A stretch of DNA of 64,000 nt from assembly GCA_043798795.1 (NCBI GenBank), contig JAZDOJ010000052.1, positions 30,940 to 94,939 on the forward strand, given 5' to 3'. Source of the stretch: Candidatus Omnitrophota bacterium (GTDB lineage Bacteria > Omnitrophota > Gorgyraeia > Gygaellales > Profunditerraquicolaceae). Position numbers: made by a program. This document shows positions 3,001 through 6,000 of the stretch, piece after piece (the first letter of the stretch is position 1; each line of letters opens with the position of its first letter).

Positions 3001-6000
3001 GGCCCTGCAGACGGAAAAGATCCTGGCGCACGTCCATAAGATGAGTGACTACCTTTTTTCGAGACTTCAGATTCTTAAAGAGAAACACGCTGTTATCCAA
3101 GAGGTCAGGGGCAAAGGTCTGATGGTCGGCATCGAACTCAAGAGAGAGGCCAAGGTTGTTGTGGAAAGATGTATGGAGAAAGGCTTGTTGGTCAATTGCA
3201 CGCATGAGAAGGTGCTGCGGCTGATGCCGGCTTTGAACATTACTAAAAAAGAGATGGATAAGGCGCTTGAGGTTATGGAGGAAGCGCTCAAAGGCGCATG
3301 ATATGAAAAAAGATTTGATTTCCGTCAAAGAGTTGACGACCCAAGACATCAAAGAAATCTTTGAACTGACCGATCGGCTCAAGAAGAATAAATCCGCATT
3401 CCGTCATGCTTTGTCAGGAAAGACTCTTGTGTTGGTCTTCCAAAAGCCATCAAACCGGACCCGGGTCTCTTTTGAGGTCGGGATGTACCAGTTGGGAGGG
3501 CATTGCTTGTATCTGGCGCCCAATGAGATTAATCTGGGTGTCAGGGAATCCATAAAGGATGTGGCTAAGACTCTTTCCAGATACGTGGACGCTATTGTGC
3601 TTCGGACGTTCGAACATAAAAATATATTAGAGATGGCTCGATATTCTGACAAGCCCGTGATCAACGGCTTATCTGATTCTGCGCATCCCTGCCAGGCGCT
3701 GGCGGATGTGTACACCGTAAGAGAAAAGCTAAAAGGCCTGAAAGGCAAAACCCTTGTCTTTGTCGGTGATGGCAATAATGTTTGCAATTCGCTGCTGCAT
3801 GCCTGTGCTCGGGCAGGATTGAATATGAAGGTGGCGGCTCCTTTGGGCTACGAGCCGCAAGATTCCATTCTTAGAGAAGCCAAGCGATGGGGCAAAGCAA
3901 CCCACGTTGCCTTAGAATTATTCCATGATCCAAAAGAAGCCGTCAGAGATGCGGATGTCATCTATACGGATGTCTGGGCCAGCATGGGGCAGGAAAAGGA
4001 GGCTGCGTCAAGGAAAAAAATATTCAGGCCTTTTCAGGTCAATAAGGATTTGGTGCGGCTTGCCAAACCCCACGCTCTTATCATGCATTGTCTGCCGGCT
4101 CACAGAGGCCAGGAGATTACGGATGAGGTTTTGGATGGAAAGAATTCCGTCGTTTTTGACCAGGCGGAAAACAGGATGCATGTCCAGAAGGCGATTCTTA
4201 TGATGTTGCTTAAGTAAAAAAGATATTTTAGTCGGGAGGACAGCCATGTTATGCAAAAAAGGGTATACGTTAATAGAAATAATTATCGTTATTATCATTG
4301 TCAGTATCATTGCTACGTTGGCCCTATCCTATTATAGTAACATAAAAGAAGACGCTTTGGATAAGCAGGTCAAGGCGGATCTGAGATTGGTTCGAGTCGC
4401 CCAGCTAAGTTATAGGATGGATCATAATGGCGTTTATTATCCGGAAAGTGGGAGCACCTCCGTCATAGGCGATATTAATAACAATCTAAAGTTGCTCCTT
4501 GCCACGGGAGGCACACAGGCCTGGGTTTTTACTGTTTGGTCAAACGGATGCAGCAGGGCGACCCGAAACGGAGCAGACGGCAGGAGCTGGTATCTTGCCG
4601 TTGATGATGCGGACGAAGAACCAAATGCCGGAGCCGGTTGCCCATGAAAAAAATTATTTTAGCCTATTCAGGGGGGTTGGATACATCCTGTGCTATCCGG
4701 TGGCTTAAAGAGCAGGGGTTCGACGTTATCTGTTTTGTGGCTGATCTTGGCCAGGGGCTAAGCCAGGGAGAAGATTTTGAAGCTATAGAGTCGAGAGGCC
4801 TGGCGGCCGGCGCATCAAAAGTCTATATCAAGGATCTCCAGGATGAATTCGTGGAGGATTTTGTTATGCCAGCCCTCAAGGCCCATGCGGTCTATGAGGG
4901 GAAATATTTGCTGGCTACAGCCCTCGGCAGGCCCTTGATAGCCAAATACCTGGTTCAGATAGCCCACAAGGAAAAAGCGGATGCCGTTGCCCACGGATGC
5001 ACGGGCAAGGGAAATGACCAGGTGCGGCTTGAGGTTACGGTCAACATATTGGATCCTGCGCTTGAAATCATCGCGCCTGTCCGGGAGTGGGAGTTTAAAT
5101 CCAGAGAAGAAGAGATGGAATATGCCCGCATGTATAACATCCCCGTAGATGTCACGAAGAAGAAACCTTATAGCATCGACAGAAATATCTGGGGTATCAG
5201 CATTGAGGCAGGGGTTTTGGAGAACCTGGAGCAGGAGCCTCCGCAGGACGCTTACCTCGTCACGAAAAGCCCGACTTCCCAGGCGACCTATCCGAAATAT
5301 ATCGATATCTCTTTTGAAAAGGGCATCCCTAAGAAGCTCGACGGCAAAACGTATAGATTGAAGAATCTGATCAACCAGCTCAACGATTGGGGAGGCCTGC
5401 ATGGCGTGGGAAGGGCTGACCTTGTGGAAAACAGATTGGTAGGAATAAAGTCCAGAGAGATTTATGAAGCGCCGGCAGCCACCATCCTTTATGCCGCGCA
5501 TAAGGAATTGGAAAGCCTGGTCCTGGACAGGGAGCTGTCGCATTTCAAGGAGACCGTCTCGCTTAAATATGCAGAGCTGGTTTACTACGGACTGTGGTAT
5601 TCGCCTCTCAAGGAAGCCCTGGACAAGTTTGTGGATGCGACGCAAAAGCACGTGACCGGTTCCATAAAAATGAAATTGTTTAAGGGAAACGGCGTGGCTG
5701 TGGCGAGAAAATCAAGGCATTCGCTTTACAAAAAGGAATTAAGCACTTACGGAAAAGGGGACCAATTCGACCAGAAACTGGCACAAGGGTTTATCAAATT
5801 GTGGGGCCTGCCCTACAAAAGATAGTTCATAGCTCAAAGTTCAGAGTTTAAAGTTAAGGAGAAAAGATGGCGAAGAAATTATGGGGAGGAAGATTCGGTA
5901 AGAAGACTCACCCCCTGGCAGAAGAGTTTACGAAATCTATTTCCTTTGATTACAAGCTGTTTGACTATGACATTGCGGGAACTCTCCAGCACGTAAACAT

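What the first reader, a model, noticed from the sequence alone, without database searches (positions are those of the whole stretch)
5824..5858. Recurrent tandem AGTTCAN heptamer arrays that start on stop codons in intergenic junctions
The same 7-nt unit, AGTTCA followed by any base, is tandemly repeated 3-5 times in at least six junctions. In argG-argH (5824-5858), dapB-dapL (10911-10945) and radical SAM-MEMO (35666-35700) the first unit begins on the upstream stop codon (tAG-TTCA / tAAG-TTCA) and the array runs into the downstream RBS. Shorter or partial arrays occur at argB-argD (2034-2047, 2109-2125) and upstream of rpsA (61272-61290). A reverse-orientation array sits in the uvrA-TPR junction (19468-19497). 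A 7-nt periodicity is not a coding signal. This looks like a lineage-specific interspersed repeat, possibly an array of binding sites for a protein or RNA affecting translational coupling or mRNA stability.
Basis: seen in the sequence. Interest (0 to 1): 0.7.

Follow-up and report, generated by a model that had tools for sequence, protein, structure and literature searches.

The report
Seven-base tandem repeats between genes
Short runs of a repeated 7-base unit fill the gaps between genes, and even encode parts of signal peptides, in this uncultured Omnitrophota bacterium; they are real and far from random, but they belong to a long-known and still unexplained class of bacterial heptamer repeats.

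Summary
AGTTCAN heptamers are tandemly repeated at six gene boundaries in the window: 11 two-unit matches against 0.19 expected. The junction arrays begin in phase on the upstream stop codon.

The window comes from a Candidatus Omnitrophota MAG. The arrays are not lineage-specific: (AGTTCAN)4 occurs in at least 120 genome loci from more than 15 phyla and in 39 viral contigs. That is only 2-8 times more often than composition-matched control heptamers.

In Omnitrophota, 7-nt arrays dominate all simple repeats (30 of 35 arrays with periods 4-12) and use several different units. Orthologous junctions in related genomes keep an array but change the unit. At argG-argH the unit is TTCANAG, TTCGNAG or ATCCAAA, each with four units in a 41-nt spacer, and the stop codon changes with the unit (TAG or TAA).

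Arrays also occur as inverted pairs that form hairpins, inside a LysA loop in relatives, and translated inside signal-peptide-like N-termini.

Best reading: these are slippage-born, concertedly evolving heptanucleotide simple-sequence repeats of the STRR / GGGAATC / TAACTGA kind. They are tolerated at gene boundaries as unstructured spacers. A dedicated sequence-specific binder is unlikely but not excluded. I rate this a new member of a known kind, of moderate interest.

The parts
2034..2046 (+). 5' remnant of the argB-argD heptamer array (AGCTCAG AGTTCT). Its first unit shares AG with the argB stop TAG (2033-2035).
   Evidence: The orthologous junction is an uninterrupted array in L123 (TAGTTCAAAGTTCATAGTC-ATG), L121 and L204.
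2047..2105 (+). GC-rich double hairpin (CCCGCCCCGC..GCGGGATCCCGC..GGGCGGGG) inserted inside the array. It is not itself a heptamer repeat.
   Evidence: Folding gives MFE -36.4 kcal/mol, z -3.5. The hairpin is absent from this junction in L121, L123 and L204. A related core lies between arrays in L123.
2108..2125 (+). 3' part of the argB-argD array (AGTTCAA AGTTTAT AGTC). It abuts the argD ATG (2126) with no Shine-Dalgarno sequence.
   Evidence: The same SD-less arrangement is seen in L121, L123 and L204.
5824..5858 (+). argG-argH array, the flagged site: five units AGTTCAT AGCTCAA AGTTCAG AGTTTAA AGTTAAG. It starts inside the stop TAG (5823-5825) and ends in the SD AAGGAG (5856-5861).
   Evidence: It is predicted unstructured (centroid 0 kcal/mol, z +0.84). 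The orthologous arrays use other units in a 41-nt spacer.
10911..10948 (+). dapB-dapL array, 5.4 units of AGTTCA(G/G/A/A/T), the best preserved copy. It starts inside the stop TAG (10910-10912).
   Evidence: It is the largest direct-repeat family in the window together with 5819-5866 (79% identity over 48 nt).
19347..19373 (+). AAATCCC/AATTTCC heptamer array at the 5' end of the TPR ORF. It encodes the cationic KSQ(F/I)P.. n-region.
   Evidence: The same N-terminus is MKKSQIPKIQIRRF in L122.
19479..19510 (-). Reverse-orientation AGTTC(A/G)N array (ACTCTGA ACTCTGA ACTACGA ATTACGA ACTA) inside the TPR ORF. It is read as TLNSELRITNY just before the YA|QD site.
   Evidence: Relatives carry ACTNCGA arrays here, encoding (N/S)YELRTP. 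Both TGA-bearing units fall out of frame; the next two units carry CGA instead, including the one where TGA would be in frame.
35665..35695 (+). Degenerate forward array (AAGTTCA AAGTTAA AGCTCGA GGTTCAA AGC). It starts in the radical-SAM stop TAA (35664-35666) and is translated as SKFKVKARGSK in the Memo-AMMECR1 ORF (35617-37155).
   Evidence: The orthologous junction in L332 has four clean AGTTCAN units, read as SKFKVQSSEFKV.
35716..35745 (+). TTTGCGC/TTTACGC array, 4.3 copies. It is the T-rich partner of the previous array and is translated as the hydrophobic FALCALRFTL segment.
   Evidence: It pairs with 35665-35695 in the MFE fold, though not significantly (-26.3 kcal/mol, z -1.5). L332 and L333 have the same layout.
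37158..37230 (+). Heptamer-array hairpin after the Memo-AMMECR1 stop. The arms are built from (T/G)ATAGTC-type units (TATAGTC TATGGTC GATTGTC / CTATCGA CTATGGA CTATCGG).
   Evidence: TRF finds a period-7 array at 37205-37225. Folding gives MFE -36.5 kcal/mol, z -4.6.
61281..61297 (+). Short array TAGTTCG TAGTTCA TAG (2.4 copies) in the rpsA 5' leader.
   Evidence: The leader is predicted unstructured (z +1.35).

Best explanation
These are heptanucleotide simple-sequence repeats, the bacterial 'long SSR' / STRR type. They are not a dedicated regulatory device.

Inferred origin. In this lineage, as in many others, 7-nt tandem duplications arise and are homogenised by replication slippage. Ectopic conversion between arrays probably contributes. 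Selection then allows the arrays to persist only where sequence is nearly free: short spacers between cistrons, the region right after stop codons, signal-peptide N-termini and surface loops.

Shown at operon junctions. The array fills the whole spacer. Its first unit supplies the last two bases of the stop codon, and it runs to the SD or, at argB-argD, directly to the start codon.

Inferred consequence. On the mRNA a single array is an A-rich, structure-poor stretch, mostly free of start codons. It separates cistrons without blocking ribosome access, as a standby or re-initiation spacer. When a forward and a reverse array lie side by side they form a hairpin, a likely 3' stabiliser or terminator. 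If the reading frame is open, the pair is translated as a cationic n-region followed by a hydrophobic h-region.
For: - Period 7 dominates. Omnitrophota loci (214 kb) hold 30 period-7 arrays of at least 3 copies against 5 for all other periods from 4 to 12, and they use more than 20 different units. Unselected control loci show 1.9 period-7 arrays per 100 kb against 14.
- The unit is favoured but not unique. Four-unit scans of viral contigs give AGTTCAN 39 and AAATCCN 49, against composition-matched controls of 12, 5 and 17.
- Arrays arise in situ. Independent arrays with different units sit in the same LysA loop in L123 (TACGCAA) and L208 (GGACGAT), each adding 3 residues.
- Arrays evolve in concert at fixed positions. 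The argG-argH spacer is 41 nt with four units in the window (TTCANAG), L204 (TTCGNAG/CTCGNAG) and L121 (ATCCAAA). L123 has three units. The stop codon is TAG before the AG-type units and TAA before the AA-type units.
- Single arrays are predicted unstructured (z +0.84 and +1.35). Inverted pairs fold strongly (z -4.6 and -7.0).
- The array junctions carry no promoter-like or terminator-like match and no Rfam family.
- Across phyla there is no strand bias (++ 22, -- 20).
- The same properties are published for Xanthomonas GGGAATC repeats: mostly four units, inverted pairs, and the same intergenic positions with variable length and sequence. That paper also cites a polymerase-slippage rationale for heptamers (PMC4692102). 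PMC4679880 cites Mrazek 2007 to the same effect.
Against: - Pure local slippage does not explain why five junctions in this window share one unit. It also does not explain why L204 uses the CG variant at three junctions. The CG-to-CA shift is not genome-wide CpG decay (CpG o/e 0.91 in the window against 0.83-0.86 in the three nearest relatives).
- The spacer length is exactly conserved at 41 nt while the unit is replaced. That suggests stabilising selection or templated conversion rather than free slippage.
- No copy-number polymorphism was seen between near-identical strains (L204/L205 at 99.9% identity; window/L331).
- The slippage mechanism itself, and any effect on translation, are inferred and not shown.
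Confidence: 0.55

Rival explanations
1. Binding-site array. Each heptamer is a site for an RNA-binding protein or sRNA, such as S1, a Csp or a CsrA-like factor. The factor would control translational coupling, processing or stability of the polycistronic mRNA.
For: - One unit is shared by five junctions in the window, and the CG variant is shared by three junctions in L204.
- All intergenic copies in the window are in the sense orientation.
- At argB-argD the array replaces the SD in four genomes. This resembles the TAACTGA repeats, for which such binders were proposed (PMC4679880).
- AG|UUC loosely resembles an RNase E-type site. This rests on my own knowledge and was not tested.
Against: - Orthologous junctions use unrelated units (AGTTCAN against AAATCCA) in genomes about 87% identical.
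- Several unit families coexist in each genome.
- The same arrays occur translated inside ORFs.
- Across phyla they occur in both orientations equally.
- All genes in the window are on one strand, so the sense orientation is confounded with replication direction.
Confidence: 0.15
2. Arms of a mobile or REP-like hairpin element. The primary element would be a forward array, a loop or core, and a reverse array, which spreads between intergenic sites. Single forward arrays in tight operon junctions would be half-elements left after loss of one arm.
For: - Inverted array pairs are common: window 37158-37230, L121 dapA-dapB (z -7.0), L123 dapB-dapL, and many Acidobacteriota loci.
- A conserved GC core (..GCGGGATCCCGC..) lies between arrays in the window and in L123.
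- Spread of an element would explain why one unit is shared by many loci.
Against: - No terminal inverted repeat with target-site duplication, and no transposase, was identified.
- Only one copy of the GC core is present in 64 kb.
- The two arms of a pair often use different units, for example AGTTCAA against TTTGCGC at 35665-35745.
- The arrays in the LysA loop look locally generated.
Confidence: 0.15
3. Contingency (phase-variation) loci. Changes in copy number would switch expression of the neighbouring genes on and off.
For: Tandem SSRs are the classical substrate of phase variation (background in PMC4679880).
Against: - The neighbouring genes are core biosynthetic genes (arg, dap) inside one operon.
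- A 7-nt step in an untranslated spacer does not shift a reading frame.
- No copy-number differences were seen between near-identical assemblies.
Confidence: 0.03
4. Chance low-complexity sequence or an assembly artefact.
For: None beyond the short length of some copies (2-2.5 units at 2034, 2108 and 61281).
Against: - 11 matches against 0.19 expected.
- The arrays are identical in independent assemblies.
- They are conserved in position across at least five related genomes.
Confidence: 0.01

Closest known systems
GGGAATC / GGGGA(C/T)T heptameric intergenic repeats of Xanthomonas and Nostoc (Rehm et al. 2015, PMC4692102)
   Same: - 7-nt units in head-to-tail arrays, most often about four units.
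- Strongly intergenic, and sometimes present as inverted pairs.
[quoted passage not shown]
- Function unknown; slippage is invoked as the origin.
   Different: - Those units are G-rich and can form G-quadruplexes. AGTTCAN cannot, and it is predicted unstructured.
- Different phyla.
- Phasing with the stop codon and translation into signal peptides were not among the passages of that paper I read.
TAACTGA direct repeats of marine Beggiatoaceae, some Cyanobacteria and Bacteroidetes (MacGregor 2015, PMC4679880)
   Same: - Heptamer direct repeats of 2-6 copies in intergenic regions, in the sense orientation.
- They often abut the start codon where no canonical SD is present, as at argB-argD here.
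- Distribution is patchy across phyla.
- The RNA is predicted unstructured.
   Different: - The unit sequence differs. TAACTGA contains stop codons in the forward direction, whereas AGTTCA(A/G/C) contains none.
- In BOGUAY one unit dominates and related heptamers are rare. Here several unit families coexist and replace each other at orthologous sites.
Cyanobacterial STRR (short tandemly repeated repetitive) heptanucleotides and 'long SSRs' of Mrazek et al. 2007
   Same: Tandem heptanucleotides dispersed over many intergenic sites. Heptamers are the commonest long SSR class in prokaryotes, with polymerase slippage proposed as the cause (as cited in PMC4679880, and PMC4692102).
   Different: The unit sequences and the host phylum differ. 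The STRR units are recalled from my own knowledge and were not checked here.
Geobacter metallireducens heptanucleotide elements (MTYCTGA x5; GGGACCG x4; PMC2700814)
   Same: Families of 4-5 tandem heptamers at dozens of sites, between and within genes, annotated as putative global regulatory elements.
   Different: The units differ. There is no experimental support there either, and no orthologous-junction comparison was available.

Membership tests
Bacterial intergenic heptanucleotide SSRs (long-SSR / STRR-type) | Head-to-tail tandem copies of a 7-nt unit, at least 3-4 copies | tested here: met
   TRF gives period 7 with 4.6 copies at 5824-5855 and 5.4 copies at 10911-10948.
Bacterial intergenic heptanucleotide SSRs (long-SSR / STRR-type) | Period 7 over-represented relative to other SSR periods in the genome | tested here: met
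   30 period-7 arrays against 5 of periods 4-12 in 214 kb of Omnitrophota loci. Control loci have 1.9 per 100 kb. Only 64 kb of the source genome itself was available.
Bacterial intergenic heptanucleotide SSRs (long-SSR / STRR-type) | Strong bias to non-coding sequence and gene boundaries | tested here: met
   Every array of at least 3 copies in the window lies at a gene boundary, while about 94% of the window is coding. Of 22 AGTTCA hexamers, 10 lie in the 5.5% that is non-coding.
Bacterial intergenic heptanucleotide SSRs (long-SSR / STRR-type) | Same intergenic position in related genomes, with variable unit sequence and copy number | tested here: met
   Shown at the argB-argD, argG-argH, dapB-dapL and dapA-dapB junctions in the window and in L121, L122, L123, L204, L206 and L207.
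Bacterial intergenic heptanucleotide SSRs (long-SSR / STRR-type) | Generated by replication slippage | not testable with these tools
   This needs read-level copy-number polymorphism or mutation-accumulation data. Near-identical assemblies showed no array length differences.
TAACTGA repeat network (Beggiatoaceae) | Unit sequence TAACTGA | tested here: not met
   The unit here is AGTTCAN. Neither strand nor any rotation gives TAACTGA.
TAACTGA repeat network (Beggiatoaceae) | Forward repeats within a few nucleotides of the start codon, replacing a canonical SD | tested here: inconclusive
   Met at argB-argD, where the array abuts the ATG with no SD in four genomes. Not met at argG-argH or dapB-dapL, where AAGGAG or AGGAG follows the array.
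Cyanobacterial STRR1-3 | Specific units (CCCCAAT, TTGGTCA, CAACAGT; from my own knowledge) in heterocystous cyanobacteria | tested here: not met
   The host is Candidatus Omnitrophota and the units differ.
REP/BIME elements | An imperfect palindrome of 20-40 nt that forms a stem-loop on its own | tested here: not met
   Single arrays are predicted unstructured. Only inverted array pairs fold.
Phase-variable contingency SSR | Copy-number polymorphism between close strains that changes a frame or promoter spacing of the adjacent gene | tested here: inconclusive
   No polymorphism was found in L204 against L205 or in the window against L331, but those pairs are 99.9% identical. The context of housekeeping operon junctions argues against this family.
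MITE / transposon-derived hairpin | Defined termini, target-site duplication, and many near-identical copies | tested here: inconclusive
   No such termini were recognised. The GC core occurs once in the window and once in L123. No systematic search for target-site duplications was made.
Known structured RNA family (Rfam) | Match at gathering score | tested here: not met
   Only one tRNA reached threshold in the whole window.

The most novel reading that the evidence does not exclude
In Omnitrophota the heptamer arrays are more than tolerated filler. There are two parts to this reading.

1. At operon junctions the array is selected as a fixed-length spacer that supplies the stop codon, has no structure, and allows SD-independent re-initiation. 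This would explain why four units in a 41-nt spacer are kept while the unit is replaced.

2. A forward plus reverse array pair acts as a ready-made generator of signal peptides. The A-rich arm translates to a Lys-rich n-region and the T-rich arm to a hydrophobic h-region. On this view N-terminal export signals of Memo-AMMECR1, TPR and other proteins were born de novo from intergenic repeat hairpins.
Probability: 0.2. Interest if true: 0.7.

Novelty: new member of a known kind. Interest (0 to 1): 0.45.

Why it matters
Heptamer repeats were reported in cyanobacteria decades ago and were noted as the commonest long SSR class of prokaryotes in 2007. Their origin and function are still unknown.

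This locus adds a new phylum and a new unit. It also adds three features that I did not find reported in the papers I searched or read:
- The array is in phase with the stop codon, and the stop codon changes with the unit.
- The unit can be replaced wholesale at a conserved spacer length between sister genomes.
- The arrays are translated as 7-residue repeats in signal-peptide-like N-termini across more than 100 Omnitrophota homologues.

These natural 'unit-swap' alleles give a concrete way to test sequence-specific against sequence-independent roles. If the repeats turn out to be neutral, the practical value is a warning for annotation. Start sites, N-terminal extensions and 'conserved' intergenic motifs in such genomes can be by-products of the repeats.

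Tried and rejected
- The one metagenome scan, using ArgH to collect orthologous junctions, hit universal ArgH motifs. It returned only loci at 39-45% identity. I reused them as an unselected control set.
- Exact look-ups of the window's ArgH and of P0001 found nothing.
- Rfam found no family at any array.
- Promoter and terminator consensus scans gave no hit in the array junctions, and overall counts were at shuffle level.
- Genome-wide CpG decay as the cause of the AGTTCG-to-AGTTCA shift is rejected. CpG o/e is 0.91 in the window against 0.83-0.86 in the three nearest relatives.
- A universal strand-specific RNA role for AGTTCAN is rejected. Across 120 genome loci the orientation relative to flanking genes is balanced.
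- Uniqueness of the AGTTCAN unit is rejected. Control permutations also form four-unit arrays, only 2-8 times less often.
- A full-text search for the array sequence returned no bacterial paper, and none on Omnitrophota repeats.
- The quartet analysis meant to polarise the unit replacement gave a mixed signal: (L121,L204) 185, (window,L121) 117, (window,L204) 101, with argD and argG deviating. It was therefore not used to date events.
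Full report
**Observation.**
- The flagged site reads TAG|TTCAT AGCTCAA AGTTCAG AGTTTAA AGTTAAGGAG....ATG. The argG stop is at 5823-5825 and the argH ATG at 5867.
- The cleanest copy is 10911-10948: five AGTTCAN units and a partial sixth, starting inside the dapB stop codon.
- A two-unit pattern with at most one mismatch occurs 11 times in the window against 0.19 expected from shuffles.
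- TRF reports both arrays as period 7.
- All 11 hits, and every period-7 array with three or more copies, lie at gene boundaries, although about 94% of the window is coding. Ten of 22 plus-strand AGTTCA hexamers fall in the 5.5% that is non-coding.
- The arrays are identical in an independent Logan assembly of the same strain. They are real.

**Source and context.**
The window's DapL is 100% identical to an NCBI protein from a Candidatus Omnitrophota MAG. All genes in the window are on the plus strand and tightly packed. The first 22 kb form an arg-lys/dap-pan-uvrA-TPR block. Its order is conserved in seven related contigs that I retrieved (L121-L123, L204-L208). Among the contigs that align by blastn, nucleotide identity to the window is 80-87%.

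**Not lineage-specific, and not a unique unit.**
The hosts include Pyrinomonadaceae and other Acidobacteriota, Prevotella and other Bacteroidota, Planctomycetota, Verrucomicrobiota, Omnitrophota, Thermodesulfovibrionia, Geobacteraceae and Patescibacteria. By my estimate (not a tool result), such a pattern should occur fewer than 0.01 times by chance.
- In viral contigs the same pattern gives 39 loci and AAATCCN (another unit present in this window) gives 49. Composition-matched permutations give 12, 5 and 17. AGTTCAN is therefore a favoured unit (2-8 fold), but any heptamer can form arrays.
- A TRF census makes the general point. In 214 kb of Omnitrophota sequence there are 30 period-7 arrays against 5 for all other periods from 4 to 12, using more than 20 units.
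- In the 120 pattern loci there are 267 period-7 arrays, more than half of them not AGTTCAN.
- In 421 kb of unselected ArgH loci the density is only 1.9 per 100 kb.

**Orthologous junctions.**
- argG-argH spacer. The window has TAG + TTCATAG CTCAAAG TTCAGAG TTTAAAG + TTAAGGAGAAAAG (41 nt). L204 has TAG + TTCGGAG TTCGTAG CTCGGAG CTCGTAG + TAAAGGAGAAGAG (41 nt). L121 has TAA + ATCCAAA ATCCAAA ATTCAAA ATCCAAA + ATAAGAGGTAAAG (41 nt). L123 has three ATCCAAA-type units (37 nt) and L206 has TAGCTCA units. L207 and L208 instead carry a spacer of about 100 nt without heptamer repeats.
- argB-argD spacer. L123 has TAGTTCAAAGTTCATAGTC-ATG. L121 has TAGTTCGAAGTGCGAAGTACGAAGTA-ATG. L204 has five AGTTCGN-type units. 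In the window the same array is split by a 59-nt GC hairpin. In all four genomes the array abuts the ATG with no SD.
- dapB-dapL spacer. It varies from no array (L121), through degenerate arrays (L122, L204), to a forward plus reverse AGCGTAA/TTTACGC pair (L123).
- Overall. Arrays keep their position and roughly their length while the unit changes in all copies together. The stop codon follows the unit: TAG before AG-type units and TAA before AA-type units. By my count from these alignments, the array starts at the second base of the stop codon in at least 14 of 15 Omnitrophota junction arrays.
- Across phyla this flush start is less regular: only 5 of 36 arrays that have a co-oriented upstream gene show it.

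**Structure.**
- Single forward arrays are predicted unstructured. For argG-argH the centroid is open and z is +0.84; for the rpsA leader z is +1.35.
- Forward plus reverse pairs make strong hairpins: window 37158-37230 (-36.5 kcal/mol, z -4.6) and L121 dapA-dapB (-51.4 kcal/mol, z -7.0).
- Such pairs are also frequent in the Acidobacteriota hits, often starting on TGA or TAA.
- No promoter-like or terminator-like consensus match falls in the array junctions, and no Rfam family matches.

**Arrays that are translated.**
- The reverse array at 19479-19510 and the AAATCCC array at 19347-19373 lie in the TPR ORF. In relatives the same stretch reads M(K/G)KSQIP..RRF + hydrophobic core + (N/S)YELRTP..YA|QD. 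In the window the two TGA-bearing units fall out of frame. The next two units carry CGA instead, including the one where TGA would be in frame.
- The 35665-35745 pair lies in the Memo-AMMECR1 ORF (Pfam Memo from residue 52). No in-frame ATG, GTG or TTG exists between the array and the conserved IKEPNVAG. The forward arm reads SKFKVKARGSK and the T-rich arm reads FALCALRFTL.
- In 110 Omnitrophota homologues, N-terminal extensions ending in ..FAQ(D/E) show residue self-identity of 0.134 at lag 7, against 0.056 in the mature protein.
- DNA from two homologues confirms clean arrays: (AGTTCAN)4 in L332, and (AAAGTCA)4-5 followed by TTTTTAC-type units in L333.
- Independent arrays also occupy one LysA loop in L123 and L208.
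- That these N-termini are functional signal peptides is an inference from composition only.

**How it most likely works.**
Shown:
- A lineage-wide excess of 7-nt tandem arrays with many units.
- Confinement to sequence-permissive places.
- Concerted change of units.
- In-phase supply of the stop codon.
- Lack of predicted structure for single arrays.

Inferred:
- The arrays arise and are homogenised by replication slippage. This rationale is given in the literature for the general excess of heptamers (PMC4679880; PMC4692102).
- Conversion between arrays probably contributes. The two arg-operon arrays of L204 share their first 21 nt.
- The arrays persist because an A-rich, structure-poor stretch, mostly free of start codons, between stop and start does no harm and may help ribosome standby or re-initiation.

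I put this explanation at about 0.55. The main weakness is that simple local slippage does not explain unit sharing among junctions of one genome or the exactly conserved 41-nt spacer. Genome-wide CpG decay does not explain the CG-to-CA shift.

**Rivals.**
- A specific RNA or protein reader (0.15). It is weakened by unit replacement at orthologous sites, by coexisting unit families, by translated copies, and by balanced orientation across phyla (++ 22, -- 20). It is kept alive by within-genome unit sharing and by the SD-less argD start.
- Arms of a mobile or REP-like hairpin element (0.15). It is supported by inverted pairs and by a shared GC core in the window and L123. No termini, target-site duplications or transposase were found, and the core occurs once in 64 kb.
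- Phase variation (0.03) and chance or artefact (0.01) are effectively excluded.

**Comparison with known systems.**
The closest described cases are these:
- The GGGAATC heptamers of Xanthomonas and Nostoc: about four units, inverted pairs, the same junctions with variable sequence.
- The TAACTGA repeats of Beggiatoaceae: forward orientation, abutting SD-less starts, unstructured RNA, patchy phyletic spread.
- Cyanobacterial STRRs, and the Geobacter heptanucleotide elements.

The present arrays meet every testable defining feature of the generic class. They fail the unit-sequence test for each named family. They are therefore a new member, not a member of any named family.

**Novelty and verdict.**
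I found no paper describing AGTTCAN arrays in bacteria or heptamer repeats in Omnitrophota. Three things appear new in the papers I could search: stop-codon phasing that co-varies with the unit, replacement of the unit at constant spacer length, and widespread translation of the arrays into 7-residue periodic N-terminal peptides. I rate the finding a new member of a known kind, with interest 0.45.

Noticed in passing
window 2047-2105; L123 about 9045-9130: A GC-rich double hairpin (CCCGCCCCGC..GCGGGATCCCGC..GGGCGGGG; -36 kcal/mol, z -3.5) is inserted in the middle of the argB-argD heptamer array. A related core (..TTAAAT.T..GCGGGATCCCGC..CAGA.A..GCGGG) sits between forward and reverse AGCGTAA arrays in L123. 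No Rfam match. It may be a small mobile or structured element that associates with the arrays.
   Followed up: partly
window 35617-35765 and 19341-19520; L332 1056-1200; L333 1501-1680: Signal-peptide-like N-termini of Memo-AMMECR1 and of a TPR protein are encoded by heptamer arrays. The A-rich arm gives a Lys-rich n-region and the T-rich arm gives a hydrophobic segment; both end in YA|QD. In 110 Omnitrophota Memo-AMMECR1 homologues the N-terminal extension has lag-7 residue identity of 0.134, against 0.056 elsewhere in the protein. An exported Memo-AMMECR1 would itself be unusual.
   Followed up: partly
L123 7011-7044; L208 7246-7272 (LysA); L123 7381-7412 (DapF): Independent heptamer arrays with different units (TACGCAA x4.9; GGACGAT x3.9) occupy the same LysA loop in two genomes. 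Each adds 3 residues relative to the window. A further array (CTATCCG x4.6) lies in the DapF N-terminal region of L123.
   Followed up: partly
window 23908-24031 and 42950-43085: Two copies of an element of about 130 nt (73% identity; ..TGGCCGAA.TTATCCTTG..AATTCGC.CATAAACTTA.GT..CATAAGTTTAG.GCTCATT) lie in long intergenic regions. They contain internal inverted repeats. Nature unknown.
   Followed up: no
window 14207-14449: An 80-residue, very basic ORF with an internal 95-nt duplication (75% identity). It is present at the same position in all relatives (65-81 aa) and has no Pfam family above threshold. It is followed by a terminator-like hairpin.
   Followed up: no
L121 and L204 (both GCA_001304135.1): The Omnitrophica WOR_2 SM23_72 assembly holds two syntenic contigs that are only 88% identical, so the bin mixes two related genomes. 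Quartet support switches around the argG-argH junction: argD and argG weakly favour window+L204, while argH onward favours L121+L204. This hints at recombination there.
   Followed up: partly
L207 616-719; L208 4015-4115: In two more distant relatives the argG-argH spacer holds a conserved sequence of about 100 nt (..GGTTCCTTTA..ATC.CGGGACAGC..TCGTCA.AGCTA..CTGCCCCGA..) instead of a heptamer array. It was not folded or searched.
   Followed up: no
L003, L007, L013, L065, L079, L118 (Acidobacteriota); L125 2423-2487: In Pyrinomonadaceae and other genomes the (AGTTCAA)4 array is typically followed by a loop and a (TTTGAAC)n array, giving a hairpin of about 27 bp. It often starts on the TGA or TAA stop. 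One unrelated metagenome contig (L125) has such a heptamer hairpin (AGGTTCG / CCTTGAA) exactly between argG and argH.
   Followed up: partly
L039, L040, L051, L061, L098 (Prevotella/Bacteroidaceae): AGTTCAT arrays sit immediately next to sequences resembling the Bacteroidota -7 promoter motif (TAnnTTTG; the motif is from my own knowledge). Some lie between apparently divergent promoters. This is a different context from the Omnitrophota operon junctions.
   Followed up: no
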